DNA from: an uncultured bacterium
Lineage (GTDB): Bacteria; Bacillota_I; Bacilli_A; RFN20; CAG-826
Length of the DNA: 64,000 bases
NCBI GenBank assembly: GCA_949283025.1
Contig: CASDRB010000012.1
Location: 197,384-261,383 of the forward strand
Reading direction: 5' to 3'
The position numbers were made by a program, and so were the translations under genes. Numbering within the stretch: position 1 is the first letter of the stretch; the number at the start of each line of letters is the position of its first letter. The notes under the pieces were generated by a model. The model worked only from the letters and a program-made list of their open reading frames with translations. It did no database searches and was not told the DNA's origin. Below, piece after piece: positions 28,354-43,882 of this stretch.

Positions 28354-29133
28354 ATGAAAAAATTAACAAAGCATGCAAGTAGAAGAAAATGGATTCTTGG
28401 TGGCGTACTAGCTTTTGCTGGCGTAACTCTATTAACTGTTGGTACTGCTACTTGGATTGTTGGACAAGATAGTTCTAGCAAAGATGAAGACATTCAAGTA
28501 TCAGTTGACTCAGTTGAAAATAGGTCAGTAGTGTTGACGACCAAATTATCAGATAGTGCGATTGAATTAAAAGAGACTAAGGAACCAGCAGAAGACGGTA
28601 TTCTAGGACTTGAAGGTGGAGCGACTCCAGATGCATTAAAAATTACATTTAGTGAAATTAAATTAACTTATGGTAACAATTATTTCAATTCGGATAGCGA
28701 TAGTTTAAAATTTGATTTTTCAATCAAATATCACGACGAAGAAGGTAGCGCTACAAATTCGCAAAATTTAGTTAAAGAAAGTAAAATTGGCACTAAGCGA
28801 GTTCAAGATAAAACAGCAGCTTCTATTAAAAATGAAAGCAATGATTCGTGGGAATATGTTGCTGCACCTGAACCATTGACTTTATCTGGCAGCGGAGGAA
28901 CTGGTGATACAGATCCTACTAGCGGTTTAAAAACTATCACATACACTAGTAAAACTGTAGAATTTAGATGGGGTAGCTTCTTTAATAATGAATCACCTTG
29001 CACATATTACAACAAATTGACTTTTGACAATGAATTAAAAGCGATGAATGATATTACTAATGAATTAGAAGCTATGCAAGTTTTAAGTAAAATTAGTTTA
29101 ACTATCTCTGTTTCAGTTGTTAAAGGAGCTTAA
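28354..29133 (+). CDS. Secreted protein with SipW-cognate (TasA/camelysin-type) N-terminal signal peptide. Paralog 1 of 5. Candidate fibre/matrix subunit.
   Basis: 259 aa. N-terminus 'KKWILGGVLAFAGVTLLTVGTATWIVGQDSS' has a basic n-region, a hydrophobic core and a G-T-A-T-W-x-x-G-x-D box, resembling B. subtilis TasA '...GGGTWAAFND'. Strong RBS. Clear paralogy to the next ORF ('DIQVSVDSVENRSVVLTT' versus 'NITVSVADVQDKSLIITE'). Confidence 0.5.
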   Translation: MKKLTKHASRRKWILGGVLAFAGVTLLTVGTATWIVGQDSSSKDEDIQVSVDSVENRSVVLTTKLSDSAIELKETKEPAEDGILGLEGGATPDALKITFSEIKLTYGNNYFNSDSDSLKFDFSIKYHDEEGSATNSQNLVKESKIGTKRVQDKTAASIKNESNDSWEYVAAPEPLTLSGSGGTGDTDPTSGLKTITYTSKTVEFRWGSFFNNESPCTYYNKLTFDNELKAMNDITNELEAMQVLSKISLTISVSVVKGA

Positions 29134-29135
29134 AA

Positions 29136-29873
29136 ATGAAAATTAAACACAATAAAATTTTAACCTATTCAATGTTAGGTTTAGCTGCTGTATCATTAGT
29201 AGGCGTCGCGTTTTCATCATGGTTAGTCCAAGAGACTCAAGGAGCAAAAGTTGAAAACATCACTGTGTCAGTCGCCGATGTTCAAGACAAAAGTTTAATC
29301 ATAACTGAAGCAAAAGTTGATGAATATAATAAGACTTTCCTTTTTGATGCTAAAGAAGATGATACAACTGGGCCTATTATTTATACAGGTGAGACTGGTG
29401 GGGAAGATTTGAATTTTGGAATTACTTTTAAAGTAGAAAAAGCCTTAAATGCAAATGGCACTGCCGCTGCAGATAATTTTGGTGGCGTCTATGTTAAATG
29501 GGAAGTCACTGACGATGATGCCGGACGAGCTTTAAAAAACGCTATAACTAATAATTACATTGTTTCACCTTTGTCCGATAGCAATGTTGCTCTTCCTTCA
29601 TTTACTAATATTGGAGCTGATAGCGGAACTACTGTTAGTGGAACTAATGTTCAGGTCACATATGATGCTGATACAGTAACTAAAACCACTCTTACTGTTT
29701 CAGTCACATTTAGTTTTGCTTGGGGGAGTAAAACTGGCAGTCAAAATCCAGGAGAGTATGCTACTACCGATGATCCCGCTACTACACAAACTGCATTACA
29801 AGTTTTAATTGATTTGCAAGCCGCTAATAATGCGAAGTTTAACATTGTCTTAACTCCATTTTTAAAAGCATAA
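29136..29873 (+). CDS. Secreted protein with SipW-cognate signal peptide. Paralog 2 of 5.
   Basis: 245 aa. 'LGLAAVSLVGVAFSSWLVQETQGA'. RBS AAAGGAG. Thr/Ser/Asp/Asn-rich beta-type composition. Followed by a terminator. Confidence 0.5.
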   Translation: MKIKHNKILTYSMLGLAAVSLVGVAFSSWLVQETQGAKVENITVSVADVQDKSLIITEAKVDEYNKTFLFDAKEDDTTGPIIYTGETGGEDLNFGITFKVEKALNANGTAAADNFGGVYVKWEVTDDDAGRALKNAITNNYIVSPLSDSNVALPSFTNIGADSGTTVSGTNVQVTYDADTVTKTTLTVSVTFSFAWGSKTGSQNPGEYATTDDPATTQTALQVLIDLQAANNAKFNIVLTPFLKA

Positions 29874-29894: not shown

Positions 29895-29924
29895 AACGCC
29901 TTTTTAGGCGTTTCTTCTTTTTTA
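29895..29924 (+). terminator. Rho-independent (probably partial) terminator between the subunit genes and the signal-peptidase gene
   Basis: Stem aacgcct / aggcgtt with loop tttt, then tcttctttttt. Confidence 0.5.
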
Positions 29925-29947: not shown

Positions 29948-30994
29948 ATGAACAGTTTAGAAATTCTTTCATTAATTATCACTTTTATCTGTTTGATAAG
30001 TTTTTGCATCGTTTTTACATTTTTATTTCGTGCCTATTTTAAAAATACGATAAAAAATATCAATGAAGGAAAAGAAGATATTGAATTAATTGATCAAGCT
30101 GTCATCGATGAGCAAAAAAAACATTCTAAAAAACAAAAAGTTTTAAAAGTAACCGGTAAGGTCATCTCATATACCATATTAGGCGCACTTATTGCTTTTT
30201 TTGGAATGGCCATCATTTCTAGAATAGCAGGTAATACTTTATTTTTTGGAGATACTACTGTAGTAGTTATCGCTTCTGGTTCAATGTCGAAAAAAAATAG
30301 CGCTAATACATATTTGCAAACATACGATTTAAACAATCAAATCGACACATATGATATAATTGGCATTAGCAAATATAAAAATTCACAACAAGTAAAATTG
30401 TACGATGTTGTCGCTTTTAAAGCTGATAACGGGGTCACAATTGTTCATCGCATTATAGATATTCAATATGATGATGATGGTATCGCTTATTACACTACAC
30501 GCGGAGATTCTAATGCGATAAGCGATAATGGTAGTTTATATAATGGCTATTTGACGTATGAAAATCTGGTTGGATATTATAACGGGGTGCGAGTTCCAAT
30601 ATTAGGTTCGTTTGTTATTTTTTTACAATCAGGTTCAGGAATTATTACTATTCTTTCCATCATATATTGTTTCGTGATGTTTGATGTATATAAAAAGAAA
30701 CTAGATGATGCAATTATCAATCGTAGCAATATGCTTATAGAATTGATAGATTATGATCCATCAAACGGCGATATCATTAATGATTTTAAACAAGAGTTGT
30801 ACTATCAAGGAATCAAATATACTTTCAAAGACGGACAATTTATCGATAAGTCTGAAACAATCGACGAACGTTTCAAAGATGTTGATAAAGATGATATGGT
30901 ATTTGTTAATGAAAGCAAAAATGAAACGTCTATTAAAATAAAGAATACTAAAAACAATCACATAAGTGATTTAAATGATAAGCGTGATAAATGA
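29948..30994 (+). CDS. sipW: Sec11/SipW-type (S26B) signal peptidase I with an extra N-terminal TM and a C-terminal cytoplasmic extension of about 100 aa
   Basis: 348 aa. Ser box 'VVIASGSMSKK', His box 'TIVHRIIDI' and 'TTRGDSNAISD' match the Sec11/SipW family (SGSMEP ... VHRV ... TKGDNN..D). TM helices flank the catalytic domain. The extra tail is 'DVYKKKLDDAIINRSN...KRDK'. Ends with a TGA stop. Confidence 0.7.
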   Translation: MNSLEILSLIITFICLISFCIVFTFLFRAYFKNTIKNINEGKEDIELIDQAVIDEQKKHSKKQKVLKVTGKVISYTILGALIAFFGMAIISRIAGNTLFFGDTTVVVIASGSMSKKNSANTYLQTYDLNNQIDTYDIIGISKYKNSQQVKLYDVVAFKADNGVTIVHRIIDIQYDDDGIAYYTTRGDSNAISDNGSLYNGYLTYENLVGYYNGVRVPILGSFVIFLQSGSGIITILSIIYCFVMFDVYKKKLDDAIINRSNMLIELIDYDPSNGDIINDFKQELYYQGIKYTFKDGQFIDKSETIDERFKDVDKDDMVFVNESKNETSIKIKNTKNNHISDLNDKRDK

Positions 30995-31007: not shown

Positions 31008-32819
31008 ATGAAAACACACTTTACACGAAAGAATTTTATCGTCTTATCTTGTGTCTTTTTTTATTTAGTCATCACTGCCTTTTGTGCATTGTGCCTAGAT
31101 GCTAAAAGTTCAATAGTAAGAGACGGCAATCCAATTCAATTAATTGCTAAAGCATTCGGATTTACTTTAGTATCAATTAATTTAGCAACTGGAGTATTAT
31201 GCGCGATGTTAGGAATTTATACATTGCTTTTTGCCGCTGCACTAATTTATGAAACAAGACTAGCAAAATACTATGGTGAAAAGGCTAACTCATTAAAATG
31301 GTTGGGAATTTATGTTATTACTTTTGTAGTTTGTTATGGACTAGCTATCGGCATTGGAGTTATCGCGCATATTCCAGTTGACGCTACTGCATTAGGATAT
31401 TCATTTTCATTTTGTTTACAAGCCTTTTTAATTGGCTTAATTATTTTCATATTTGCGGCAGCATTAGTCTTGTTTGCCCTACTTTTAATTTTGAACATCA
31501 AAAATTATGGAAAGCCATATAAATGGTTTGGACCAAAAGTTGAAAAGGCTGAATTAGATGAAAAACTTCAAGAAAGAATTGAAGAAAATAAACAGATTGA
31601 ACAGGGCTTATTGGCCGCTGCATTTGGCGATGTAAAAGCTCAGGGAGTCGCTCATACTACTGAATCAAACACAAATAGTTCCACTTCTGCAAATTCATCG
31701 TTAGAAAACAATTATAATTTAGTGAAAGAAAGGGTCTTCCCTGGTTTATGCAAAATTGACACTATTCATGAGATTGTTTTGCAAGAAGATTTTGCTAACG
31801 ACATAAACTTAGCCACTCTTTGTGAACAATTCCGAAACTATTTGGCTTCACATGAAAGATTATACTATGATATGCCAACTATTCGCGCTTTTGTGGCAGG
31901 ATTAAGTGCATCTCGTTTAATTATTTTAGAAGGTCTTTCTGGTACTGGTAAATCTTCAATCGCTCGTTATTTTTCTGATTTTATTAACGAAAAGTCATTT
32001 TTTGTTCCTGTTCAAGCTACTTGGCGCGATCGTACATCAGTATTAGGATTTTTTAATGATTTTTCCAAAACTTATAATGAAACCGAATTTTTAAAACATC
32101 TATATGAAGCCACATATCGAGCAAGACATGTCAATATCATGGTTTTAGATGAAATGAATATTTCCCGTATTGAATATTATTTTGCTGATTTCTTGTCAAT
32201 TATGGAATATCCGATGAATGACTGGGTTTTAAAAATAATGCAATTACCATATGATTTTGAAGCACCTCTGCATTTAGAAGATGGTGAACTTCACATTCCT
32301 GAAACGACTTGGTTTATCGGCACCGCAAATAAAGATGACTCAACATATACAATTACTGATAAAGTCTATGACCGTGCTATAGTCATCTCTTTTAGCGATC
32401 GAAACGAACCATTCCAAGTTGTTGGAAAATCTGACCCAATCACTTTATCTTATGATTATTTAATGGAACTATATAATCATGCTCAAAAAGATGAAGATAA
32501 TCGTTTAAATGGCGCTGACATCGCTAAATTTAAAACTATCACTGACCAAATTTATGATTCGTTTGATTTGACGTTTGGTAATCGTATCATGAATCAAATC
32601 GAATTATTTGTTCCAACATTTGTTGCTTGTGGCGGAACAAAAGAAGAAGCATTAGACTTTATGTTAGCCCGCAAGGTTTTAATTAAACTTGATGGCCGCT
32701 TTGAAGAATATGTTAAAAAAGGATTAGAAGAATTATTAAAATTAATCAAAAAAACTTATGGCAAAGGCAATTTTGCTTTGAGCCAAGAATTAATTGAAAG
32801 ATTATTAAAACGCTTCTAA
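31008..32819 (+). CDS. Membrane-anchored McrB-like AAA+ (AAA_5) NTPase: 4 N-terminal TM helices and a Ser/Asn-rich linker, followed by the NTPase domain
   Basis: RBS GAGGGGG lies before ATG 31008 (the track ORF begins upstream at 30975). Walker A 'LEGLSGTGKSSIARY', McrB-type Walker B/sensor 'IMVLDEMNISRIEYYFADFLSIMEY' (compare McrB 'IDEINRAN...GEL..LLE') and 'WFIGTANKDDSTYTITDKVYDRAIVISF' (compare 'GTMNtaDrs...lD.AlrRRF'). The first roughly 200 aa are polytopic membrane. Confidence 0.5.
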   Translation: MKTHFTRKNFIVLSCVFFYLVITAFCALCLDAKSSIVRDGNPIQLIAKAFGFTLVSINLATGVLCAMLGIYTLLFAAALIYETRLAKYYGEKANSLKWLGIYVITFVVCYGLAIGIGVIAHIPVDATALGYSFSFCLQAFLIGLIIFIFAAALVLFALLLILNIKNYGKPYKWFGPKVEKAELDEKLQERIEENKQIEQGLLAAAFGDVKAQGVAHTTESNTNSSTSANSSLENNYNLVKERVFPGLCKIDTIHEIVLQEDFANDINLATLCEQFRNYLASHERLYYDMPTIRAFVAGLSASRLIILEGLSGTGKSSIARYFSDFINEKSFFVPVQATWRDRTSVLGFFNDFSKTYNETEFLKHLYEATYRARHVNIMVLDEMNISRIEYYFADFLSIMEYPMNDWVLKIMQLPYDFEAPLHLEDGELHIPETTWFIGTANKDDSTYTITDKVYDRAIVISFSDRNEPFQVVGKSDPITLSYDYLMELYNHAQKDEDNRLNGADIAKFKTITDQIYDSFDLTFGNRIMNQIELFVPTFVACGGTKEEALDFMLARKVLIKLDGRFEEYVKKGLEELLKLIKKTYGKGNFALSQELIERLLKRF

Positions 32820-32822
32820 TAT

Positions 32823-34184
32823 TTGATAATTATGCAAAAAGATAAATTTTTGGTTAAGATAAATGAATCGTTTATTCAAGCGCTTGGAATAAAGTGCGAT
32901 TTTAATAATGTAATTAAGGCGATTCATAAACAAGAAATATCTCTTTTTAGTCAACATCTTGAATCAGATTTATCATTTTTTGAAGAAATCAATTCTTTGA
33001 TTGATAAAATGATGAATATTATTTATCACCCCCATTTTCAAACGACGACAAATGAAGTTGTATTAAGAAGTGAAATTAGCCAATCTTTAAACCAAGAATC
33101 TTTTATCAAAACCACAAACGATCCATCTCTTTGGAAACAAAAACCAAACAAAGAAATGTATCCAGAATATGTTCATTCTATTGAATACATCGACACCTTG
33201 AATATCTATGAAAACAGGGTACTAATTTATGTTTATGAACAAATCTTAGCTTTTTTAGAAAACTATAAAAGTCAAACGATAACCCAAAATTCTTCTATTC
33301 AAGAATTTTATAAGCAAAAAGGTTTAGTTTTTGCTAAGCACAACATCGTCGATGATTTATTAAAAAACAAAAAAAGGATTGCCGAATTTATTCAAGGTGA
33401 TGAAGAAAAAATAGCGGAAATGAATACATTTTTAAAAGTGTATAAAAAAGCTAAAAGAATTAAATTAACTAGTTTTTATAAATTGCTTCGCCATGAAAAA
33501 ATTGCTCTGCCGTTAATGCCTACTAATATTTTAATTCACGACCTTAATTACAATTCAATTTATCGTTTTTATAAAAAATATCTAGTAGTCAAAACCGAAA
33601 AAGATGGAACTACTTATGAAGAATTAGCAAACTACATCTTCATACGTCTAATTGATGATTTAATAACATCAAAGTATAAATTTAACAAATTTAGCAAAAT
33701 AAAAATAAATCAACTTATTTTGCATCCAACAAAACCATTTGTTTGCCGCAAAGATGGTTTTAGATATTCAATTGATTATCAATTCCCGAATATTGATGTT
33801 TGTGTCTCATATAACAAATCTGCTTTAGCTTTTCATCGTTTAACAATAAGAGATAAATTATCAAATTATAGTTTTATTGATGATCGTGATATCAACACAT
33901 TTTATATCACGCTTAACAATGAATGTGATCAATACTTCAATGTTGTCGATATTAACATTAATAAACAAAACAATGATGAGCATATCTTCGACAATTTATT
34001 CAAATCAATGCGCGTTAATATTCCGTATAAAAACGATAAAGTTGAACGATGTCCAGTATGTGGTGGCATGCGTTTACAAAAGGACAAAAATTATTATTAT
34101 TGCGATAATTGTGGTTCAAAGCTTGCTAAACTAAAAATTAAGAGCAAACCGAGTCTTTGGATACAATCTTTGTGGAGGTATTGA
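32823..34184 (+). CDS. Hypothetical soluble protein with C-terminal C4 zinc ribbon. Genetic partner of the AAA_5 NTPase.
   Basis: 453 aa. C-terminal 'CPVCGGMRLQKDKNYYYCDNCGS'. No recognisable catalytic motif by eye. Starts 3 nt after the NTPase gene and ends (TGA) 2 nt before the ABC ATPase gene. Confidence 0.35.
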   Translation: MIIMQKDKFLVKINESFIQALGIKCDFNNVIKAIHKQEISLFSQHLESDLSFFEEINSLIDKMMNIIYHPHFQTTTNEVVLRSEISQSLNQESFIKTTNDPSLWKQKPNKEMYPEYVHSIEYIDTLNIYENRVLIYVYEQILAFLENYKSQTITQNSSIQEFYKQKGLVFAKHNIVDDLLKNKKRIAEFIQGDEEKIAEMNTFLKVYKKAKRIKLTSFYKLLRHEKIALPLMPTNILIHDLNYNSIYRFYKKYLVVKTEKDGTTYEELANYIFIRLIDDLITSKYKFNKFSKIKINQLILHPTKPFVCRKDGFRYSIDYQFPNIDVCVSYNKSALAFHRLTIRDKLSNYSFIDDRDINTFYITLNNECDQYFNVVDININKQNNDEHIFDNLFKSMRVNIPYKNDKVERCPVCGGMRLQKDKNYYYCDNCGSKLAKLKIKSKPSLWIQSLWRY

Positions 34185-34186
34185 TA

Positions 34187-34969
34187 ATGGCAGATAATCA
34201 AATGTTAAAAATTAACCAAGATATTTTAACTAACAACTTGCCTGACATTGCAATAAGTTTTGAAGACCTTCATAAATCATATGGAAAAAAGGAAGTGTTA
34301 AAAGGAATCACTTTGCAAATCAAAAAAGGCGAGATTTTTGGTTTTTTAGGAAAAAACGGAGTAGGCAAATCCACTACGATAGATTGCCTTGTCGGATTAA
34401 AAGATTATAATTCAGGAACAATTAAAATTTTTGATTTGGATATCAAAAAAAATCCATTAGAAGCCAAGTCTTTATTTGGTTATGTCCCATCTGAACCTAT
34501 GACTTACGAACTCATGAGCGGGTATGAGTATCTACAATTTGTTTCGGCCGCTTATGAAATGAGTCAAGAATCATTTGATGAAAACTATCAATTCTTAAAA
34601 GAAAAATTTGCCATAGGAGACGAGGATTTAAATCGAAGAATCATCGAATATTCTCATGGTATGAAACAAAAGGTTTGTTTGATGGCCTCATTAATTCATA
34701 ATCCAAAATTATGGATTATGGATGAACCAACAGTCGGTTTAGATGTCATGGTTTATGAAACATTATTAAAAATGATGAAGGAGTATTCAAAAAGCGGAAA
34801 TACTATTTTTGTTACTTCACATAACATTGATTTAGTCGCTTCAATTTGCGATCGAGTCGCTATCATTAATAATGGTAATATAGTCAATTTGATTGACTTT
34901 AATAAAGAACCATTAAAAAGAAAGGATTTAAAACGCATCTTTTTTAGGGTGTATGGCATCAATTTATGA
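34187..34969 (+). CDS. ABC transporter ATP-binding protein (NosF/ABC-2 type)
   Basis: RBS GGAGG lies before ATG 34187. Walker A 'GKNGVGKST', signature 'YSHGMKQKV' and Walker B 'LWIMDEPT'. Confidence 0.8.
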   Translation: MADNQMLKINQDILTNNLPDIAISFEDLHKSYGKKEVLKGITLQIKKGEIFGFLGKNGVGKSTTIDCLVGLKDYNSGTIKIFDLDIKKNPLEAKSLFGYVPSEPMTYELMSGYEYLQFVSAAYEMSQESFDENYQFLKEKFAIGDEDLNRRIIEYSHGMKQKVCLMASLIHNPKLWIMDEPTVGLDVMVYETLLKMMKEYSKSGNTIFVTSHNIDLVASICDRVAIINNGNIVNLIDFNKEPLKRKDLKRIFFRVYGINL

Positions 34970-36573
34970 TTTTATCTTTGGTTGGCAAAGAATATGTTGA
35001 AGCAAAAGAAAATGCTTCTAAATCAACCATAGCAGTTAAATGGATATTAACCGTATTGCTATATGCTTTTTTTGTTGCGTTAGAAGTATATATTTTTATT
35101 GCTATAAATAATAAATTGGATGAAATGTCATCATATGGCTCGTTTGATTTTATTTGTGTTTATTTATTTGTCATTACTATTATTTCTTCTATCATAGTCG
35201 TCAATAAAGCCAGAATTTCCATCTTTAAAGAAAAAGATCGGCTTTTATTATCTAAATTACCAATTACAAGTGATGATATCGTCATTTCAAAAGTTATTTA
35301 TATATATTTAAAAGAAGTCGCTAATTCTTTAATATTGGCCGCTCCTATTTTAATAACTTATGGCGCCCTTCACGAATTAAAGACTGGGTATTATATCTTT
35401 TCTTGTTTGTATCCTTTTTTTATTTCTTTTTTTAGCATCGGCGTCACAATGATTATTCTTATTCCATATAACTATATTTATAACTTTTTAAAGAAAAGAT
35501 ATATTTTACAAATTATTGTATCGTCTATTTTAGTTATTGGCTTATGCTTTGTTTATAAATACGTTTTAGAATTATTTTTAAATATTGTTAACAATTCCAA
35601 ATTGGATTATTTATTTTCTGAATCATTTATGGAATCGATCAATAAAACTGCCAGTTATTTGATACCAGTAAGTTCATATTTAAAAATGATTACAATTAAA
35701 ACTAATTTAGTTAGCAACACTTCTATATTTATTGGAGTATGTTTATTATTTAGTGTCATTGGCTTTTTCTTAGCTAGTTCATTATTAAAAAAATCACAAT
35801 TTGCCACTTCTGAAGAAACTTCAAGTGGTAAAATTAAAATCAAAAAGATAAAAACTGCCAAAAAAGCCTTAATTAGCAAGGAATTAATGTTGATTTTTAG
35901 AAACTCTAATTTCATTTTTACTTATACCGCCTTGATTATTATGCAGCCTTTTTTGACGTTGGTAGTCATCACTTCTTTAAACAAATTATTATATGATAGC
36001 CTAGAAATGTTTTTAATCTATTATCCAGAGATGATTAATGGTATCAATATTTGTATTATCTTGCTATTTTCATCTATTATTGGCGCTAGTTCAATTGAAC
36101 CATTATCAAGGGAAGGGAAAGGGCTATTAACCGTCAAACAAATCCCTATTTCTCCTATTACACAAACTTTGATTAAAATATCTATTACATCAATTATCTC
36201 TATTTTTTCTTTATTGATTTCAAATATCGTTTTGATTGGCACTTCCACTATTTCTGCAACTGTTTTTTGGGTTTCATTAGGGATAGGGATTTTGTTCACA
36301 ATTGAATTAAATATTTTGGGTTTGTTTTTAGATTTAAGACGTTTGGATGTTGATAAAAAAGCAAACATGACTTATCTTTCAGCTTTTGTATCCTTTGCTT
36401 TTCCGTTGTTATTAGGGATAATTCATTTTGCTTTAACCTTTATAAGGGTCAATGCCACCTATATTTATTTAATTGAATTTGGGCTAGCAATAATTGTTAT
36501 GATTCCTTTAATTTTGATGTATAAAAAAATAGTTAATGATGGTTTTACCAAGATGAGGAGTGAATTATTATGA
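34966..36573 (+). CDS. Large polytopic membrane protein, probable ABC-2-type permease partner
   Basis: 535 aa with at least 12 hydrophobic helices. Its ATG overlaps the ATPase stop (ATGA), and its stop overlaps the next start. Confidence 0.45.
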   Translation: MILSLVGKEYVEAKENASKSTIAVKWILTVLLYAFFVALEVYIFIAINNKLDEMSSYGSFDFICVYLFVITIISSIIVVNKARISIFKEKDRLLLSKLPITSDDIVISKVIYIYLKEVANSLILAAPILITYGALHELKTGYYIFSCLYPFFISFFSIGVTMIILIPYNYIYNFLKKRYILQIIVSSILVIGLCFVYKYVLELFLNIVNNSKLDYLFSESFMESINKTASYLIPVSSYLKMITIKTNLVSNTSIFIGVCLLFSVIGFFLASSLLKKSQFATSEETSSGKIKIKKIKTAKKALISKELMLIFRNSNFIFTYTALIIMQPFLTLVVITSLNKLLYDSLEMFLIYYPEMINGINICIILLFSSIIGASSIEPLSREGKGLLTVKQIPISPITQTLIKISITSIISIFSLLISNIVLIGTSTISATVFWVSLGIGILFTIELNILGLFLDLRRLDVDKKANMTYLSAFVSFAFPLLLGIIHFALTFIRVNATYIYLIEFGLAIIVMIPLILMYKKIVNDGFTKMRSELL

Positions 36574-39008
36574 AAAAGACTTTATATGTCTTATTAATCA
36601 TTCCTTTCATTGTCGCTATTTTAACTTTTGTTAACATAGTCGTTTTAAAAAACACTATTGGTGTAGATATAATCGGTATCAATTGGTCATACGCTGATGA
36701 AGAAGGCTTTCAAATTCGCGATCAATCATATCAATTGGAAGCCACCCCTATCATCGATCCAAATTATGAATTAAGTGAAGGAAATGATTTGGTGTGGTCT
36801 ATTAAAAATAAAGATGGTTCAGACAACAGTTATGCTACATTAACTGAAAATAATGGTAATTATTATCTAAAAGCTAACTTAGAAGGTTATATTGATATCA
36901 CTTGTTCAAACCGTAAAAATACAGTTTCAAGAACATTCAGTGCTCAAATATTTAAAGATGGTGCTATCATCATTAATAATGCTCAAAATCCTAGTTCAGG
37001 ACAATCTATTTCTAATATAAGAAATTATGGACAATACGATTTAATGTATGGAAATGATAAAAGCGTAAATAAGATTAAATCATCTTTAACATTAGATATT
37101 AATGTTTTATCTGCTGTTCCAAATGATACTTATTACCTTTTAGATCAAAGCGTCAATGTCGCTTTTGAAAATGGAAAAGTCAATTTTATCGGTGTTGGCC
37201 AAGCCTATTTTACCTTAGCAATCACTTCTATGCCCTACATTACATCTACTTATTCTTTTAATATTGTTGAAGATGGTATTAATGTTTACAATTATCAAGA
37301 TTTATTAGAATGCACTAACAAATCTAATGATGGGGAGATTGTTTGTTTACAAACTAATTTGCAATCTTTGCAATATACATATCAAATAGATGCTAATGGC
37401 AATTACACACAAACATATTTAAATAATAATACTAAATTGTTTGGCAATTATGATTTTAAAAACAAAAAATTTAGTTTCAAAGATGAAATTTATCGTTTTA
37501 CCACTACTTATAATCATGAATATATCGATCAATATGTTGAGCAAGCTTACAATAATGACCAACAAAAATTACAAGAATTATTACAAGTAAAAAGCGCAGT
37601 TCATGTCCAAAAAGATTTTTATGGAAATGGCTACACAATTAATACACACGAGGTGTCATATCCTACCAATGGAAAAATCGATCCTTATTCTGGAAAATTA
37701 AAACCTGGTGCAAATGATTTATTCCAAGGTCCGTTAACTTTTGTTTCTTTAGGAAAATTAGAAGCTCCAATAGTAGAAACTTACGGACAAGATAATTCTG
37801 GAATGTATATTGAAGGAAACGATATTACAATCGATGATTTAAAAATCCAAAATACAAACGATGTTGATAATTTATACAATCTTGAATATGTTGGTTCTGT
37901 AATTGATACTTTAGGAAATAATATAACAATTTCTAATTCTATCATTCGCAATGGTAGAGTAGGTTTAAGAGTATTTTCTAGCCCAGGATTTGTTTTAAAT
38001 AACTCTATGATTAGCAATGCTAGAGAATTCTTATTAAAACTTGGTTCTAATCGCTATGTTAAAACAAACGATTCAGAAACCGTATACATCGATTATCGAA
38101 ACAATCGATATTCAGGACCGATTGCCAAGTTTATGAACAATACTACTGGATTAAACGCTGATGTAATAATGGATGATACCATTAAAGATTTTCAAAACCC
38201 CATTGAAACATTAAATGCTTATTATAAAATGCAAAACGGTTTAGACAATCAAGAAGCTTTATATCGTAATGATAGAACTTTAATCTATGAACAAGAAGTA
38301 AAAATAATTGATTCTATTTTTTATACATCCGGATTGTTTGCCATTGGTTTTGATACCAATTTTAATGGACCATATTTATATAATGGATTACCATCATTTG
38401 TAAAAACGATATTATCAAGGTTGGAAGAACAACCAATTGTTCCTAATAATATTGGGGGTACATCTTATCCCACTAATTTAATAATAGAAGGCGACACCCG
38501 TTTTTATGATTATAAAGATATTGATAGCGTCGATTTATCTTGTTTAATACAAGAAAGATTTGGAGAGATTTTACATTCGATGGGCTATGATATTGAAATA
38601 ACTATCGATCAATATTTCCCAGTGAAAAAAATGTTAAAAGAATATATAACATCGCTTCAACATTTATACGCTTATCAAGAAAATGAAAAAAATTATATTA
38701 ATACAATTGTAGCGTATTATGGAGGGGGTAATAATTTATCCAATGTCGATTTAACAAGCACTACTAACCCCAATTATTCTGAAATTATTGAATTAGACTA
38801 TGCTTATGCATCTTTAACTGGAGATGGTTTAGAAACGGGCGAAGATGATTTAATTAATATGGGGTCGGCTTTATTAGCTAGATGCGTACCGATGGCGGCT
38901 GGATTTAACCCATTCAAATTCATTACTAACGGCACTTATACTGATAAGCCGTATTTATATGGTGAAACACCTAATATTGAAGATTTATATAATCGAGGAG
39001 GAAATTAA
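36570..39008 (+). CDS. N-terminally membrane-anchored extracellular protein with right-handed parallel beta-helix (PbH1/CASH, NosD-like) repeats
   Basis: 812 aa. Signal-anchor 'LYVLLIIPFIVAILTFVNIVVL'. Beta-helix repeat signatures 'GNNITISNSIIRNGRVGLRVFSSPGFVLNNSMISNA'. Translationally coupled to the permease gene. Confidence 0.45.
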   Translation: MKKTLYVLLIIPFIVAILTFVNIVVLKNTIGVDIIGINWSYADEEGFQIRDQSYQLEATPIIDPNYELSEGNDLVWSIKNKDGSDNSYATLTENNGNYYLKANLEGYIDITCSNRKNTVSRTFSAQIFKDGAIIINNAQNPSSGQSISNIRNYGQYDLMYGNDKSVNKIKSSLTLDINVLSAVPNDTYYLLDQSVNVAFENGKVNFIGVGQAYFTLAITSMPYITSTYSFNIVEDGINVYNYQDLLECTNKSNDGEIVCLQTNLQSLQYTYQIDANGNYTQTYLNNNTKLFGNYDFKNKKFSFKDEIYRFTTTYNHEYIDQYVEQAYNNDQQKLQELLQVKSAVHVQKDFYGNGYTINTHEVSYPTNGKIDPYSGKLKPGANDLFQGPLTFVSLGKLEAPIVETYGQDNSGMYIEGNDITIDDLKIQNTNDVDNLYNLEYVGSVIDTLGNNITISNSIIRNGRVGLRVFSSPGFVLNNSMISNAREFLLKLGSNRYVKTNDSETVYIDYRNNRYSGPIAKFMNNTTGLNADVIMDDTIKDFQNPIETLNAYYKMQNGLDNQEALYRNDRTLIYEQEVKIIDSIFYTSGLFAIGFDTNFNGPYLYNGLPSFVKTILSRLEEQPIVPNNIGGTSYPTNLIIEGDTRFYDYKDIDSVDLSCLIQERFGEILHSMGYDIEITIDQYFPVKKMLKEYITSLQHLYAYQENEKNYINTIVAYYGGGNNLSNVDLTSTTNPNYSEIIELDYAYASLTGDGLETGEDDLINMGSALLARCVPMAAGFNPFKFITNGTYTDKPYLYGETPNIEDLYNRGGN

Positions 39009-39009
39009 C

Positions 39010-40110
39010 ATGAAAAAACATTTTTGGAAAGGACTATTTGTTGCTTGTTCATTGCTATTAGCTACCCCGCTAACTGCTTGTTCAACATTTTTTGGTGGCA
39101 GCGAATATCTAATCGACGATGTCACAGCAGTGACAAATGATAATGGTGACACGGTTGTTACTATCACTTTTAGTGATAATACGGTTCCAAACGTCGTATT
39201 TACCATTCCAAAAGGACAAGAAGGAAATGGCATTAAAGATATAAAAAGCGAATATGATGAAAATGGCCAAAGAATTAAAATAACTATTTCTTTTACAGAT
39301 CCAAGTGTAGAAGATTATATATTTTATATTCCTGTCATTAAAGGTGAACAAGGTAATGGTATAAGTGAAGTTAAAGTCGACACATTGGAAAATGGTGATC
39401 AGGTTCTTACTTTTTCTTATTCAGATGGAAGAAATGATACCGTCATCACTATCCCACGCGGACAAGCCGGTAATGGCATTGAATCAATCAACATTGAGCA
39501 AGACGAACAAGGCAATTTAATCGCGACAATTACTTTTACCGACTTGGATATGCCACCAGTCAGTTTTACTATTCCTAAAGGCAATCCAGGAAATGGCATA
39601 ACTATGATTGAAACAAGCGAAACCGATGATAAATATATTCTGACAATTTATTATGATAATGGTCTAACTGATACAATTGAATTTGATAAGCCTACTACTA
39701 ATGAATGGTATTATGGAAATAATGATCCAAGCGATAATATTGGTCGTATCGGAGATTTTTATTTAAATACATATACAGGCGATGTTTTTATCAAAGTTGC
39801 TGATGGAAGCGCTAGTGGCCATTGGAAATTTTATTTAAGACTTGGCAATAACCCCGGCCAAGGAGGCGATAAAGAACAATATATTGTCGCGTTTGATTAT
39901 AATGGTGGCAATCCTATCAACCCAGATGAGCCTCATTCTGTAAAAGTTGATGAAGGAAAATGCATCGATTTACCACTAGCACAAAAAGATGGATTTGAAT
40001 TTATTGGCTGGTACACAGATTTAGTTATCGATGCCAACACAGCACATTTTACTGACGCTACCCCCGTTACTCAAGATTGGACTTTGTACGCTCATTACGA
40101 AGCTTTATAA
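39010..40110 (+). CDS. Lipoprotein with 5 tandem internal repeats of about 39 aa and a C-terminal Listeria-Bacteroides repeat (Flg_new) domain
   Basis: RBS AGGAGG lies before ATG 39010 (the track ORF starts upstream at 38959). Lipobox 'LLATPLTAC'. Repeats with core 'TIPKGQEGNGI / IPVIKGEQGNGI / TIPRGQAGNGI / TIPKGNPGNGI'. C-terminal 'VAFDYNGGNP...KDGFEFIGWYTD' matches the LBR consensus (FdxNGG...P.k.Gy.F.GWY.d). Confidence 0.55.
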   Translation: MKKHFWKGLFVACSLLLATPLTACSTFFGGSEYLIDDVTAVTNDNGDTVVTITFSDNTVPNVVFTIPKGQEGNGIKDIKSEYDENGQRIKITISFTDPSVEDYIFYIPVIKGEQGNGISEVKVDTLENGDQVLTFSYSDGRNDTVITIPRGQAGNGIESINIEQDEQGNLIATITFTDLDMPPVSFTIPKGNPGNGITMIETSETDDKYILTIYYDNGLTDTIEFDKPTTNEWYYGNNDPSDNIGRIGDFYLNTYTGDVFIKVADGSASGHWKFYLRLGNNPGQGGDKEQYIVAFDYNGGNPINPDEPHSVKVDEGKCIDLPLAQKDGFEFIGWYTDLVIDANTAHFTDATPVTQDWTLYAHYEAL

Positions 40111-40141
40111 ATTTTATATATATATTAATAAATAAACAAAA

Positions 40142-40176
40142 ACACGAAGCGTCCCGAATCGCTTCGTGTTTTATTA
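40142..40176. terminator. Strong bidirectional rho-independent terminator between convergent transcription units
   Basis: 10-bp stem acacgaagcg / cgcttcgtgt with an 8-nt loop, flanked by an A-run upstream and ttttatt downstream. Confidence 0.65.
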
Positions 40177-41605: not shown

Positions 41606-43882
41606 TTAATCTATATTTGCATACAAAGTTTTTGATGTTTCACAAAGAAGATCGCTTGCCTCTAAATATCCACCAATCCAAACAAAAAGCCAAGTTCCCT
41701 TATATATGCTTGTCGTAACTATTGTATAGTCATAGTTTTTATAGTTGCTGGCGCTAATTGAAAGGAGCCCATCATACAAATATATATTTTCTACACATGC
41801 AGTGCCACTTCCTTTTTCGTATCTATATTTGTAATAAAATCCTTTGCGTATTATAACACTTAATGCACTACCATTCCCCATAGTTGCTAACAACTGATAA
41901 TTCCCACCGCTTGTTTCTGATTCGTACACATATTTTGTTGATCCGCCATTTCCAGAATTTCCTGCACTTAGGAACCTCATTTCAATTCCTTCACCTGGTT
42001 CGATAGTGACATCTATGTTTCCTAACATAATATACATTTGATTGCTAGCAAAAGTATAATTCGAACCTTCTTGCATTGAAAAGTAAGTTCTTTCGGCTCT
42101 TGATGATGATTCGATTTTTATTTGTTGACCAATTTCAATCATAAACTCTTTAGATATACTTTCTAAACCATTTTCTGTGGTTAATAATACTTCGTTGTTG
42201 CCACTGGAGTCATAAGACCAGACTCTATATCCAACAGTAGGATGTTCATAATTAAATTTATTATCGATAATAATTCTTAATATATATGATGATAAGTATC
42301 CATTGGCCCAACATTTTAATCCATTAGAATTTGAATAAATGGTTTCGCCTGCTTTTAATAAGTAATTTTGATATTCATTTAATGTTGAATTAAAAAACGG
42401 TCCCGATGCACTAATGTTCACATTTACATTCGTGGTTCCTTCATTGGATGAAACTCTTAAATTACTTTGTTTTATATTAGTTAGATCAATTTTAGCACTT
42501 CCATCTAAATTCTCAGTTGTGACATAGCCACCAAATGATCCAGAACTAGAAACTATTATCGTTCCATTATTAATTAATTTTGCATCACCTCTATCAATAG
42601 GATAAGATGTGATTCCATTAGTTGAATCTGTTTCATAAATAATAAATTTATTTAAAATGTTAGCTGTAGAACTATTTGAAATTGTCAAAGAAGATCCGCC
42701 CATAAATTTCACCTGATAATTGAAATTGAATTCAGTGTTGCCTTCTAATCTAATATCTAATTTGTATGAAATTGGTAAAAAATAATATGAAGTATTAATT
42801 TCTGCTAATTCTAGGTCAAAATACAAATATCCCATATTAACGAGTCCGTTTATAGCAATATAAGTTTTTGAATTATCGGCATTCGTATAATCAGGATTAA
42901 TTGGACAGTATTCAAAAGAAATACTCCCAGATTCAAGAAAAAATAAAGGTTTCGAACCACTTTCATTAACTTTTTGCTGGCTTGAAATGATACAGCCAGT
43001 AACATCAACTGGTCTTGACATAATAGATGTGGATAGGTATGCTCTACATTGAACATCAAATACACCTCCAGATTCTATTTGCAAATATGTTTGAGTGTTA
43101 TAAAAATCAAAAACATTTACAGGACAAACATTATTGTTAATCAATTCATTAATAGCACTTATGCCAGGCATATCGTAAATACCAATTGGTGTTCTTAGAT
43201 AACCAGTAGATGTAATTTTTAAATATCTATTTGAATCGAATTCGTTAGAATAACTAGGATTTTCTACATTATCGACATTTTTATTATTTATTTCTTTTAT
43301 ATATCCATAATTATATAGCGAACCATTTACAGTAATTGAAGAATTTTCATCTAGTGATACTTCAGCATAATAACTGCAAATTCCTTTTGTTCTAAATTGA
43401 CCGCCAATATACATATATCCATTTACAATCAAATTAGTATTTATTAATTTTAATTGACTTCTTCTATATGTGTTTACACCAGCCGAACTAGTATCAATAA
43501 ATAAATCTTTCAAAGAAGCGACGTCGGTATTATTCCAATTTTTGAGTTCATCATAAGGTAAATATAAACTTGTATTGTCTCCAACAATTAACGTCTTATT
43601 TTCTTCAGTAAGAAAACTTCCAGAAAGTAAATAAACATCAACATTTTGAGAAGATTGTGAAGCAGAGATTAAAGCGCTCTCCAAGTTTGCAAATCTTGCA
43701 TATGGAGAACTAGTGCCTTGATAATAATTTTCAACAATAGCTTTTGAATTTTTATCAATTATCGCAGGAGCAGTTTCTTCATTATTATTTTTAGAATCAT
43801 ATTGAACAATTAAAAAAGAAGATAAACTTATTGAAAATATGCCACCAAATAAAATTAAAGAAGATAGTACACTTTTTTTCAT
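41606..43882 (-). CDS. Large secreted/surface protein (758 aa). The N-terminus resembles a SipW-cognate signal. Paired with the small paralog upstream.
   Basis: 'MKKSVLSSLILFGGIFSISLSSFLIVQYDSKNNN'. Asn/Ser/Thr/Tyr-rich beta-type composition. Separated by 2 nt from the upstream 206-aa gene. Confidence 0.4.
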   Translation of the reverse strand: MKKSVLSSLILFGGIFSISLSSFLIVQYDSKNNNEETAPAIIDKNSKAIVENYYQGTSSPYARFANLESALISASQSSQNVDVYLLSGSFLTEENKTLIVGDNTSLYLPYDELKNWNNTDVASLKDLFIDTSSAGVNTYRRSQLKLINTNLIVNGYMYIGGQFRTKGICSYYAEVSLDENSSITVNGSLYNYGYIKEINNKNVDNVENPSYSNEFDSNRYLKITSTGYLRTPIGIYDMPGISAINELINNNVCPVNVFDFYNTQTYLQIESGGVFDVQCRAYLSTSIMSRPVDVTGCIISSQQKVNESGSKPLFFLESGSISFEYCPINPDYTNADNSKTYIAINGLVNMGYLYFDLELAEINTSYYFLPISYKLDIRLEGNTEFNFNYQVKFMGGSSLTISNSSTANILNKFIIYETDSTNGITSYPIDRGDAKLINNGTIIVSSSGSFGGYVTTENLDGSAKIDLTNIKQSNLRVSSNEGTTNVNVNISASGPFFNSTLNEYQNYLLKAGETIYSNSNGLKCWANGYLSSYILRIIIDNKFNYEHPTVGYRVWSYDSSGNNEVLLTTENGLESISKEFMIEIGQQIKIESSSRAERTYFSMQEGSNYTFASNQMYIMLGNIDVTIEPGEGIEMRFLSAGNSGNGGSTKYVYESETSGGNYQLLATMGNGSALSVIIRKGFYYKYRYEKGSGTACVENIYLYDGLLSISASNYKNYDYTIVTTSIYKGTWLFVWIGGYLEASDLLCETSKTLYANID

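What the first reader, a model, noticed from the sequence alone, without database searches (positions are those of the whole stretch)
31008..34184. Membrane-anchored McrB-like AAA_5 NTPase with a Zn-ribbon partner inside the fibre operon: assembly motor or embedded defence-like pair?
The ORF at 31008-32819 has 4 N-terminal TM helices and an S/N-rich linker. These are followed by a clear McrB/AAA_5-type NTPase core (GTGKSS; 'MVLDEMNISRIEYYFADFLSIMEY'; 'WFIGTANKDD...DRAIVISF'). McrB-family NTPases are normally soluble and paired with a McrC PD-(D/E)xK nuclease. Here the downstream partner (32823-34184, 453 aa) has no visible nuclease motif but ends in a C4 zinc ribbon. The pair sits between a SipW-type peptidase gene and a NosDFY-like ABC system, all translationally tight.

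Either reading is unusual. One is a membrane NTPase recruited to surface-structure biogenesis. The other is a novel membrane-associated McrBC-like defence module inserted into the operon.
Basis: partly seen in the sequence, partly recalled or inferred. Interest (0 to 1): 0.7.

Follow-up and report, generated by a model that had tools for sequence, protein, structure and literature searches.

The report
Membrane-anchored McrBC relative in surface-structure operon
A pair of genes descended from the McrBC restriction enzyme has lost its nuclease, gained a membrane anchor and become a fixed part of a conserved operon in many uncultured gut Firmicutes that appears to build a secreted cell-surface structure; this kind of system was named in 2024 but never characterised.

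Summary
Positions 31008-32819 encode a 603-aa protein with four N-terminal TM helices, a charged helix, an S/N-rich linker and a C-terminal AAA+ core. The next gene (32832-34184) encodes a soluble protein ending in an invariant C4 zinc ribbon.

The pair is not an inserted defence module. All seven core genes (SipW peptidase, NTPase, partner, ABC ATPase, 12-TM permease, ~800-aa exoprotein, lipoprotein), preceded by secreted-protein genes, were found in 63 of 84 loci; most others are cut contigs. Only one locus (L072) breaks the order. Loci come from Bacilli (RF39-like, Acholeplasmatales) and Clostridia (Christensenellales). At least 583 species genomes encode the NTPase. The window's flanks are metabolic genes.

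The closest known system is CoCoPALM (Bell et al. 2024), described in a few sentences. This is a 4-TM, ABC-linked, zinc-ribbon variant.

Most likely it is the cytoplasmic NTP-driven energising or regulatory module of a SipW-dependent surface-assembly machine. That mechanism is inferred, not shown.

The parts
28354..29133 (+). Small secreted protein 1 (259 aa). It has a K/R-rich N-terminus, a hydrophobic segment and then 'GTATWIV'. It is a presumed SipW substrate and structural subunit.
   Evidence: Paralogues are present in 1-7 copies upstream of sipW in related loci. No Pfam or PDB sequence match.
29136..29873 (+). Small secreted protein 2 (245 aa), a paralogue of protein 1 with the N-terminal motif 'VAFSSWLV'.
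29895..29912 (+). Terminator-like hairpin followed by a T-run, lying between the subunit genes and the machinery genes. It may act as a partial terminator.
   Evidence: This is a consensus scan only, and the number of such sites in the region is no greater than in shuffled sequence.
29948..30994 (+). Extended SipW/archaeal-type signal peptidase I (348 aa). It has an extra N-terminal TM helix and a C-terminal tail of about 100 aa. SGSMS, VHRI and GDSN motifs are present.
   Evidence: NCBIfam TIGR02228 scores 53.7 bits against a cut-off of 51.85. The SipW equivalog gives E 4.8e-17, below its cut-off. TM helices. The motifs are read directly from the translation.
31008..32819 (+). Membrane-anchored McrB-like NTPase (603 aa), the first gene of the finding.
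31008..31502 (+). Four-helix membrane domain (residues 1-165). Conserved polar positions are N41-P42 in the outer loop and Y-E82-x-R84-L-A86 at the cytoplasmic end of TM2.
31533..31724 (+). Charged helix of about 30 residues (176-206) followed by a disordered S/N-rich linker (207-239).
   Evidence: The BLASTP alignment to the 1-TM CoCoPALM-type protein P0215 starts inside this helix.
31725..32816 (+). AAA+ core (residues 240-603). Motifs: Walker A GLSGTGKSS, Walker B MVLDEM, and the signature N441-K-D443-D. N441 and D443 are invariant; D444 is nearly invariant and is E in some homologues.
32832..34184 (+). McrC-derived partner (450 aa from the ATG at 32832; the longest ORF starts at the TTG at 32823). 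It is soluble and lacks a nuclease. This is the second gene of the finding.
33000..33572 (+). DUF2357-like core (residues 60-250, counted from 32823). Conserved positions include R82, W104, P114-E115, D124, Y129-E130-N131, F218, T234-N235, Y243 and R/K248. A variable helical insert at about residues 145-200 splits the core.
   Evidence: hhalign to a DUF2357-positive CoCoPALM partner gives 97.2% probability and E 4e-11.
34050..34112 (+). C4 zinc ribbon (C410, C413, C427, C430), followed by a conserved W...RR tail.
34187..34969 (+). ABC transporter ATPase.
   Evidence: Pfam ABC_tran 1.7e-24. NCBIfam matches the DrrA and GldA types, below their cut-offs.
34966..36573 (+). Polytopic permease of about 12 TM helices (535 aa).
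   Evidence: ABC_tran_2 at 7.6e-4, below the Pfam cut-off. Orthologues carry 12TM_1 or ABC_tran_2. TM segments.
36570..39008 (+). N-terminally anchored 812-aa extracytoplasmic protein of unknown fold, conserved in all complete loci.
   Evidence: No Pfam, NCBIfam or PDB sequence match.
39010..40110 (+). Lipoprotein (lipobox LTAC) with internal repeats and a C-terminal Listeria-Bacteroides repeat.
   Evidence: Flg_new 1.1e-10. Conserved as the last operon gene.
40139..40172 (.). Palindromic terminator-like hairpin with 13 base pairs at the end of the operon.

Best explanation
The two genes are a domesticated McrBC pair.

The first protein is an McrB-family AAA+ NTPase of the NxD-motif clade, probably a GTPase by homology. 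Four TM helices and a short charged helix hold it at the inner face of the membrane. The second protein is an McrC homologue. It keeps the DUF2357 domain, which in McrBC plugs the McrB ring and stimulates hydrolysis. It has lost the PD-(D/E)xK nuclease and ends in a zinc ribbon.

The pair is a fixed component of a vertically inherited operon. That operon also encodes 1-7 small secreted proteins with SipW-type signal peptides, an extended SipW peptidase, an ABC ATPase with a 12-TM permease, a large anchored exoprotein and a lipoprotein.

The most likely role is the cytoplasmic NTP-driven energising or gating module of a SipW-dependent cell-surface assembly machine. In this model a membrane-tethered hexamer, activated by the McrC-like subunit, couples nucleotide hydrolysis through its conserved TM domain, and possibly the cytoplasmic tails of SipW, to processing or assembly of the secreted subunits.

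Shown: homology, architecture, loss of conserved nuclease residues, and operon conservation. Inferred: ring formation, stimulation by the partner, coupling to SipW or the ABC system, and the fibre nature of the product.

The confidence given (0.6) is for the functional reading as a whole. The homology and operon-integration parts alone would rate about 0.9, and the specific coupling mechanism about 0.3.
For: McrB identity.
- The only AAA+ protein in the PDB sequence search is McrB (E 0.005, residues 296-468).
- hhalign against E. coli McrB gives 85.7% probability and E 5.5e-6 over 167 columns running from Walker A to the signature motif. RavA gives 12% over 40 columns.
- N441 and D443 are invariant and are followed by D or E. 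This is exactly the NxD variant described in PMC11090510.
- The AAA+ domain is 44% identical to a soluble coiled-coil relative and 39% identical to a 1-TM FtsB-like relative.

McrC identity.
- 38 of 70 orthologues match DUF2357, best E 3.9e-10.
- hhalign to a DUF2357-positive partner gives 97.2% probability.

Nuclease loss.
- No conserved D/E/K triad in residues 260-400, and 0 of 70 orthologues match any nuclease family.

Integration into the operon.
- All seven core genes were found in 63 of 84 loci, and most of the others are cut contigs. Order is kept in all loci but L072.
- At least 583 species genomes of Bacilli and Clostridia encode the NTPase.
- The median NTPase-partner gap is 5 nt.
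- The NTPase is the second most conserved operon protein (median 46% identity).
- The window's flanks are metabolic genes.
- Extra secreted-protein genes are inserted inside the operon in some lineages.
- Sister 1-TM loci carry the same signal-peptide type, S26 peptidases, and GGDEF-EAL genes upstream in L094 (confirmed by Pfam) and at the same position in several others.
Against: - The window's own partner does not reach the DUF2357 threshold. Its model is only moderately confident (pLDDT 66.5). It shows no similarity to E. coli McrC by hhalign.
- The small secreted proteins have no detectable similarity to TasA or any pilin, so 'fibre' is unproven.
- SipW cleavage releases substrates outside the cell, so it is not obvious why a cytoplasmic NTPase would be needed.
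- The retained zinc ribbon and the kinship to predicted RNA-targeting CoCoNuT systems leave a nucleic-acid role open.
- There are no experimental data for any member.
Confidence: 0.6

Rival explanations
1. The pair, or the whole operon, is an anti-phage defence system. In this reading a membrane-associated McrBC-like sensor detects infection and triggers an effector, for example remodelling of the cell surface or damage to the membrane.
For: - The NTPase core matches the PADLOC candidate PDC-M26A at E 1.6e-39.
- Its closest soluble relatives belong to the CoCoNuT-like NxD clade, which is predicted to act in defence.
- The partner evolves fast (median 27% identity against 46% for the NTPase), as proteins at a conflict interface often do.
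Against: - The PDC-M26A match covers only the AAA+ core, and the partner matches no PADLOC model.
- PDC systems are unpublished candidates.
- No nuclease or other effector domain is present.
- The operon has a fixed gene order, was found in at least 583 species genomes, and has metabolic flanks. None of this resembles a defence island.
Confidence: 0.12
2. The pair is a signalling or regulatory device rather than a motor. The membrane NTPase senses the state of the envelope or of assembly, and it holds or releases the zinc-ribbon partner, which then acts on DNA or RNA to control expression of the subunit genes.
For: - The invariant C4 zinc ribbon gives weak TFIIB-type and ribosomal zinc-ribbon matches.
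- A terminator-like hairpin lies between the subunit genes and the machinery genes.
- The outer loop and the cytoplasmic loop of the TM domain are conserved.
Against: - The zinc-ribbon matches are generic and below threshold.
- Zinc ribbons also occur in McrC homologues of the NxD clade that have no regulatory role assigned.
- No DNA-binding domain is detectable.
- The hairpin count is no higher than in shuffled sequence.
Confidence: 0.1
3. The pair moves nucleic acid at the membrane, either DNA uptake or eDNA release coupled to the surface fibre. This would reuse the translocase activity of McrBC.
For: - McrBC is a GTP-driven DNA translocase (established knowledge; structures 6hz4 and 6ut5 are hit).
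- The module is anchored in the membrane and retains a zinc ribbon.
Against: - No DNA-binding N-terminal domain is present; a membrane domain takes its place.
- The operon encodes no channel like ComEC, no nuclease and no DNA-binding protein.
Confidence: 0.07
4. The NTPase is a MoxR/RavA-type AAA+ chaperone that matures or inserts a partner protein. Under this reading the McrB resemblance is superficial.
Against: - Sequence-profile evidence favours McrB.
- The N-x-D signature is present.
- The neighbour is McrC-like and not a VWA protein.
Confidence: 0.04

Closest known systems
[quoted passage not shown] 2024, eLife 13:RP94800 (PMC11090510)
   Same: - NxD-clade McrB-like NTPase with a membrane-anchoring N-terminus followed by a charged helix.
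- A DUF2357 McrC-like partner immediately downstream.
- A signal-peptidase gene immediately upstream.
- Preceded by several small secreted proteins whose signal peptides end in [ST]-F-A-W-like motifs.
- AAA+ domain 39% identical to a 1-TM FtsB-like representative; partner profile 97% hhalign probability.
   Different: - The anchor here has 4 TM helices, not a single FtsB-like TM plus leucine zipper.
- The partner is shorter and ends in a C4 zinc ribbon, not a long coiled-coil tail.
- There is one extended SipW, not two short S26 peptidases flanking the pair.
- An ABC ATPase, a 12-TM permease, an exoprotein of about 800 aa and a lipoprotein always follow here. They were not found beside the pair in the 80 1-TM loci examined.
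- The mature domains of the secreted proteins are not detectably homologous.
- The paper gives only a few sentences and no experiments. Whether its authors counted this 4-TM family as CoCoPALM could not be checked.
McrBC type IV restriction enzyme (E. coli, T. gammatolerans)
   Same: - An AAA+ NTPase with Walker A, Walker B and the N-x-(x)-D signature.
- It is followed by a partner with the McrC N-terminal fold.
   Different: - No DNA-binding N-terminal domain; a membrane domain takes its place.
- No conserved PD-(D/E)xK residues in the partner.
- Not linked to restriction or defence genes.
- Vertically conserved inside a secretion or surface operon.
CoCoNuT systems and the PADLOC candidate PDC-M26
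   Same: - The same NxD[DE]ST signature.
- 44% identity in the AAA+ domain to a soluble coiled-coil relative.
- McrC homologues with inactivated or missing nucleases and with zinc ribbons occur in that clade.
   Different: - Those proteins are soluble and have long N-terminal coiled coils.
- They are always associated with HEPN or other nucleases.
- No nuclease, helicase or TerY-P genes are present here.
TapA-SipW-TasA biofilm fibre operon of Bacillus
   Same: A dedicated archaeal-type signal peptidase is encoded next to secreted proteins whose signal peptides carry a T/S-W motif near the cleavage site. The TasA signal peptide used for this comparison is recalled from memory.
   Different: - The secreted proteins show no sequence similarity to TasA or camelysin.
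- The Bacillus operon has no NTPase, no McrC-like protein and no ABC transporter.

Membership tests
McrB-like AAA+ GTPase (NxD clade) | [quoted passage not shown] | tested here: met
   GLSGTGKSS and MVLDE are invariant in 50 homologues.
McrB-like AAA+ GTPase (NxD clade) | N-x-D signature at the sensor-1 position, usually followed by D or E (PMC11090510) | tested here: met
   N441 and D443 are invariant. Position 444 is D, or E in some homologues. The motif aligns with NTAD of E. coli McrB.
McrB-like AAA+ GTPase (NxD clade) | Sequence closer to McrB than to other AAA+ families | tested here: met
   McrB is the only AAA+ protein found by phmmer against the PDB (E 0.005). hhalign gives 85.7% probability and E 5.5e-6 for McrB, against 12% for RavA.
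McrB-like AAA+ GTPase (NxD clade) | Structural nearest neighbour is McrB | tested here: not met
McrB-like AAA+ GTPase (NxD clade) | GTP-specific hydrolysis stimulated by the McrC partner | not testable with these tools
   Requires biochemistry.
McrC | N-terminal DUF2357/McrC-N domain | tested here: met
McrC | C-terminal PD-(D/E)xK nuclease with a catalytic D...(D/E)xK | tested here: not met
   No conserved acidic or lysine positions in residues 260-400. 0 of 70 orthologues match a nuclease family.
CoCoPALM | NxD McrB GTPase next to a DUF2357 McrC homologue | tested here: met
CoCoPALM | GTPase fused to an FtsB-like TM plus coiled-coil domain | tested here: inconclusive
   There are four TM helices, and the last is followed by a charged helix of about 30 residues. 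The 1-TM relatives P0197 and P0215 show the FtsB-like layout. No FtsB profile comparison was run.
CoCoPALM | Association with signal-peptidase family genes | tested here: met
   A SipW-type gene lies immediately upstream of the NTPase in the window. A SipW homologue was detected in 82 of 84 loci.
CoCoPALM | Coiled coils in both the McrB and the McrC homologue | tested here: inconclusive
   Long helices are predicted at NTPase 176-206 and at partner 129-165 and 194-214, the partner region being a variable insert. No coiled-coil predictor was available.
Anti-phage defence system (PADLOC PDC-M26 / type IV restriction) | All system components detected, plus an effector | tested here: not met
   Only the AAA+ core of component A matches. 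The partner matches no PADLOC model, and no nuclease is present.
Anti-phage defence system (PADLOC PDC-M26 / type IV restriction) | Defence-island or mobile context | tested here: not met
   The window's flanks are metabolic genes. The operon is conserved in 84 loci and the NTPase in at least 583 species genomes. Patchiness within a species was not measured.
MoxR/RavA/CbbQ AAA+ chaperones | Paired VWA/MIDAS protein and MoxR-type sequence | tested here: not met
   The operon has no VWA domain. hhalign to RavA covers only 40 columns around Walker A. The overall fold is similar.
NosDFY | NosD beta-helix protein, NosF ATPase and NosY ABC-2 permease | tested here: not met
   Pfam and NCBIfam show only a generic ABC ATPase. 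The permease is of the 12TM_1/ABC_tran_2 type. The 812-aa protein matches no family.
SipW/TasA fibre system | SipW-type (archaeal/ER-type) signal peptidase I | tested here: met
   TIGR02228 scores above its cut-off (53.7 against 51.85). The Ser, His and Asp boxes are present.
SipW/TasA fibre system | TasA/camelysin-family subunit | tested here: not met
   A profile of 61 small-protein sequences finds neither TasA in the PDB nor Peptidase_M73 in Pfam.

The most novel reading that the evidence does not exclude
The McrBC-derived pair is the motor of a previously unrecognised class of bacterial surface-filament assembly machinery. It would be distinct from type IV pili, sortase pili, chaperone-usher pili and self-assembling TasA. 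In this reading a membrane-tethered GTPase ring, activated by a nuclease-less McrC, drives ordered SipW processing and polymerisation of subunits, working together with an ABC transporter. The system would be core to RF39-like Bacilli and Christensenellales of the gut.
Probability: 0.3. Interest if true: 0.8.

Novelty: new variant of a known kind. Interest (0 to 1): 0.6.

Why it matters
This would be a clear case of a restriction-enzyme motor (McrBC) being exapted for a cell-envelope function.

The module sits in a conserved operon found in hundreds of uncultured gut Firmicutes species (RF39-like Bacilli, Acholeplasmatales, Christensenellales). Their surface biology is essentially unknown.

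If the pair energises or gates assembly of a secreted structure, it defines a new assembly principle for monoderm or wall-less bacteria. It would also give a testable function to the CoCoPALM branch, which the literature has only named.

It matters for annotation too. Automated defence finders that use McrB-like or PDC-M26A-like models will hit this housekeeping-like gene.

Tried and rejected
- A tight family profile of the NTPase against PDB sequences lost the McrB signal (E 0.77). The single sequence and hhalign were more informative.
- A word-indexed search with the 70-sequence partner alignment returned only 6 proteins. The partner structure therefore had to be predicted from 7 sequences (pLDDT 66.5).
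- hhalign of the partner profile against E. coli McrC found nothing.
- The CoCoNuT paper's held supplementary files contain no CoCoPALM, FtsB or signal-peptidase text. No later CoCoPALM paper exists in the library.
- 'PDC-M26' appears in no paper.
- Profiles of the small secreted proteins and of the 812-aa protein gave no significant PDB or Pfam hits.
- hhalign of the small-protein profile against 1-TM-locus proteins aligned only the signal peptide.
- Rfam found nothing in the window.
- The promoter scan was uninformative in this AT-rich DNA.
- Rejected: insertion of a mobile defence cassette (synteny and flanks).
- Rejected: MoxR identity (sequence profiles, signature motif, McrC-like neighbour).
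- Rejected: the NosDFY label (no family support).

Full report
**1. Observation**

The + strand between 28354 and 40110 carries nine co-directional, tightly spaced ORFs. The finding covers two of them.

The first ORF can start at 30975 or 31008. A 99%-identical database protein of 603 aa supports 31008.

Hydropathy predicts four TM helices at residues 10-28, 62-80, 101-119 and 144-162. Basic residues lie at the N-terminus, in the 2-3 loop and after TM4, which gives an N-in/C-in topology with a cytoplasmic C-terminal domain.

An AlphaFold model built from 50 homologues (pLDDT 80) shows the same helices. They are followed by a 30-residue charged helix (176-206), a disordered S/N-rich segment (207-239) and an AAA+ domain (240-603).

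The second ORF most likely starts at the ATG at 32832; a 98%-identical homologue is 450 aa. It has no TM helix. It ends in a CPxC...CxxC zinc ribbon whose four cysteines are invariant in 70 orthologues.

**2. What the two proteins are**

*The NTPase*
- Pfam gives only a sub-threshold AAA_5 hit.
- Against PDB sequences, the only AAA+ protein found is McrB (E 0.005). The alignment runs from Walker A through the McrB signature motif.
- hhalign of the family profile against E. coli McrB gives 85.7% probability and E 5.5e-6 over 167 columns. Against RavA, a MoxR-type ATPase, only 40 columns around Walker A align (12%).
- The signature is N441-K-D443-D. N441 and D443 are invariant; position 444 is D, or E in some homologues. 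This is the 'NxD, usually followed by E or D' variant that Bell et al. 2024 use to define a major McrB branch.

*The partner*
- The window copy matches no Pfam family above noise.
- 38 of its 70 operon orthologues match DUF2357, the McrC N-terminal domain (best E 3.9e-10).
- Conservation is concentrated in residues 60-145 and 200-250, split by a variable helical insert, and in the zinc ribbon.
- Residues 260-400 are poorly conserved and have no conserved acidic or lysine positions. No orthologue matches any nuclease family.
- The partner is therefore an McrC derivative without an active PD-(D/E)xK nuclease.

**3. Context**

The NTPase has more than 5,000 relatives in 90%-identity clusters. The best 120 are all about 600 aa and align over their full length.

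By record title these are uncultured Bacilli and Clostridia:
- Bacilli: Staphylococcus sp. CAG:324, Ca. Onthovivens, Enteromonas, Acholeplasmatales, Anaeroplasmataceae and 'Mollicutes'.
- Clostridia: Christensenellaceae and Eubacteriales.

In the 84 loci fetched, the gene order is small secreted proteins (1-7 copies), SipW, NTPase, partner, ABC ATPase, permease, an exoprotein of about 800 aa, then a lipoprotein. This order holds wherever the contig is long enough, and 63 loci contain all seven core genes.

Exceptions and additions:
- In L072 a lipoprotein gene and sipW separate the NTPase from the partner.
- In L005 and L007 an 889-aa secreted-protein gene lies between sipW and the NTPase.

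Median identity to the window proteins:

| Protein | Median identity |
|---|---|
| ABC ATPase | 58% |
| NTPase | 46% |
| SipW | 40% |
| Partner | 27% |

The window's flanks encode sugar and redox metabolism genes. There are no mobile-element or defence genes.

This rules out the 'inserted defence module' reading.

**4. Wider family**

An exhaustive search with the AAA+ domain found 8,113 clusters at 50% identity (703 at E<1e-30). In the 150 best hits listed, the domain lies at the C-terminus.

Among those 150, the N-terminal regions fall into three groups:
- 4-6 TM helices, the type seen here (44 proteins);
- 1-2 TM helices, some followed by a leucine-zipper-like coiled coil, as in P0197 and P0215 (37 proteins);
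- long soluble N-terminal regions, clearly coiled-coil in P0224 (68 proteins).

The PADLOC candidate PDC-M26A aligns with the soluble group over a longer stretch. With the membrane forms it aligns only over the AAA+ core. PDC systems are unpublished candidates.

**5. Comparison with what is known**

Bell et al. 2024 (PMC11090510) describe, in a few sentences, a 'large clade' of NxD GTPases. [quoted passage not shown] They usually have coiled coils in both the McrB and McrC homologues. The authors name them CoCoPALM and defer them to a later paper. No later paper is in the library.

I fetched 80 metagenomic loci of the 1-TM type. The eight loci inspected gene by gene contain:
- several small proteins whose signal peptides end in 'STFAWF';
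- an S26 peptidase, then the 1-TM NTPase, then a partner of 490-875 aa (DUF2357-positive in two of the three tested) with a coiled-coil tail and, in most, a second peptidase (one locus lacks this partner);
- in several, a 1-TM gene just upstream that Pfam confirmed as GGDEF-EAL in L094;
- in some, a giant protein downstream.

None of the 80 loci has the ABC, exoprotein or lipoprotein genes beside the pair.

The window NTPase is 39% identical to a 1-TM representative, with the alignment starting inside the post-TM helix. The partner profile matches a 1-TM-locus partner at 97% probability.

The small secreted proteins share only the signal-peptide type: '[GT]-F-A-[TS]-W' here against 'T-F-A-W-F' there.

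The window therefore holds a distinct architectural variant of the CoCoPALM kind. It has a 4-TM anchor, a zinc-ribbon partner, a single extended SipW and an obligatory ABC/exoprotein/lipoprotein module.

**6. Mechanism**

*Shown*
- Homology to McrB and McrC.
- Membrane anchoring with a cytoplasmic AAA+ domain.
- Intact NTPase motifs.
- Loss of conserved nuclease residues.
- Obligatory linkage to a SipW peptidase, its presumed substrates and an ABC system.

*Inferred from the McrBC structures*
- The NTPase forms a ring under the membrane.
- The DUF2357 domain of the partner inserts into that ring and stimulates hydrolysis through a conserved basic residue (candidates R82 and R/K248) acting on D443.

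*Inferred from context*
- The conserved TM domain (N41-P42 in the outer loop; E82, R84 and A86 at the cytoplasmic face) and the cytoplasmic tails of SipW transmit this cycle to signal-peptide processing or to ordered assembly of the secreted subunits.
- The ABC transporter, the anchored exoprotein and the lipoprotein form the extracytoplasmic platform.

Why a cytoplasmic NTPase is needed for proteins that SipW releases outside the cell remains unexplained. The fibre nature of the product is unproven.

*Rivals kept open*
- Defence.
- Regulation through the zinc-ribbon partner.
- Nucleic-acid transport.
- MoxR-like chaperone.

**7. Verdict**

This is a new variant of a kind that has been named but not characterised. 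Interest is moderate to high (0.6): the exaptation of McrBC is surprising and the system is widespread in gut Firmicutes, but the association was already flagged in 2024 and the function here rests on inference.

Noticed in passing
L078:106-4451: One related genome carries a second, paralogous pair directly upstream of the same operon. The first gene encodes a 923-aa NTPase with a much larger polytopic membrane domain, an S/N-rich linker and the same AAA+ core (FIGTANRDEST; PDC-M26A 7e-51). The second encodes a 524-aa partner with the YEN motif and C-terminal Cys motifs that look like two zinc ribbons.
   Followed up: partly
L005:7311-9980 (also L007) and L072:4617-6974: Some lineages have an extra large secreted-protein or lipoprotein gene (889 aa and 785 aa) inserted inside the operon next to sipW. 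In L072 this separates the NTPase from its partner.
   Followed up: partly
window 28354-29873 and loci L001-L084: The number of small secreted-protein genes varies from 1 to 7 per locus. All share a K/R-rich N-terminus, a hydrophobic segment and a G-F-[AS]-[TS]-W-[IV] motif, plus an invariant W-G near the C-terminus (W206-G207 in the window's first copy). The family has no Pfam or PDB match.
   Followed up: partly
window 29895-29912: A terminator-like hairpin lies between the two subunit genes and sipW. It could give higher expression of the subunits than of the machinery.
   Followed up: no
L094:4184-5719 (similar 1-TM genes at the same position in L102, L125, L136): In loci of the 1-TM (FtsB-like) CoCoPALM type, a membrane-anchored gene lies just upstream of the small secreted-protein genes. 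Pfam confirmed it as GGDEF-EAL only in L094. This hints at c-di-GMP control of that sister system.
   Followed up: partly
L028, L034, L041, L006, L024, L070 (record titles): Contigs carrying this Firmicutes operon are filed under Prevotella, Paludibacteraceae, Lachnospiraceae or Gemmiger formicilis bins. These are probably binning or labelling errors in the source MAGs.
   Followed up: no
L010, L014, L032 (end of operon): The terminal lipoprotein gene is duplicated in tandem in some loci.
   Followed up: no
window 41606-43882 (- strand): A 758-aa ORF just downstream of the operon, on the opposite strand, has no Pfam match at E<=1e-4.
   Followed up: no
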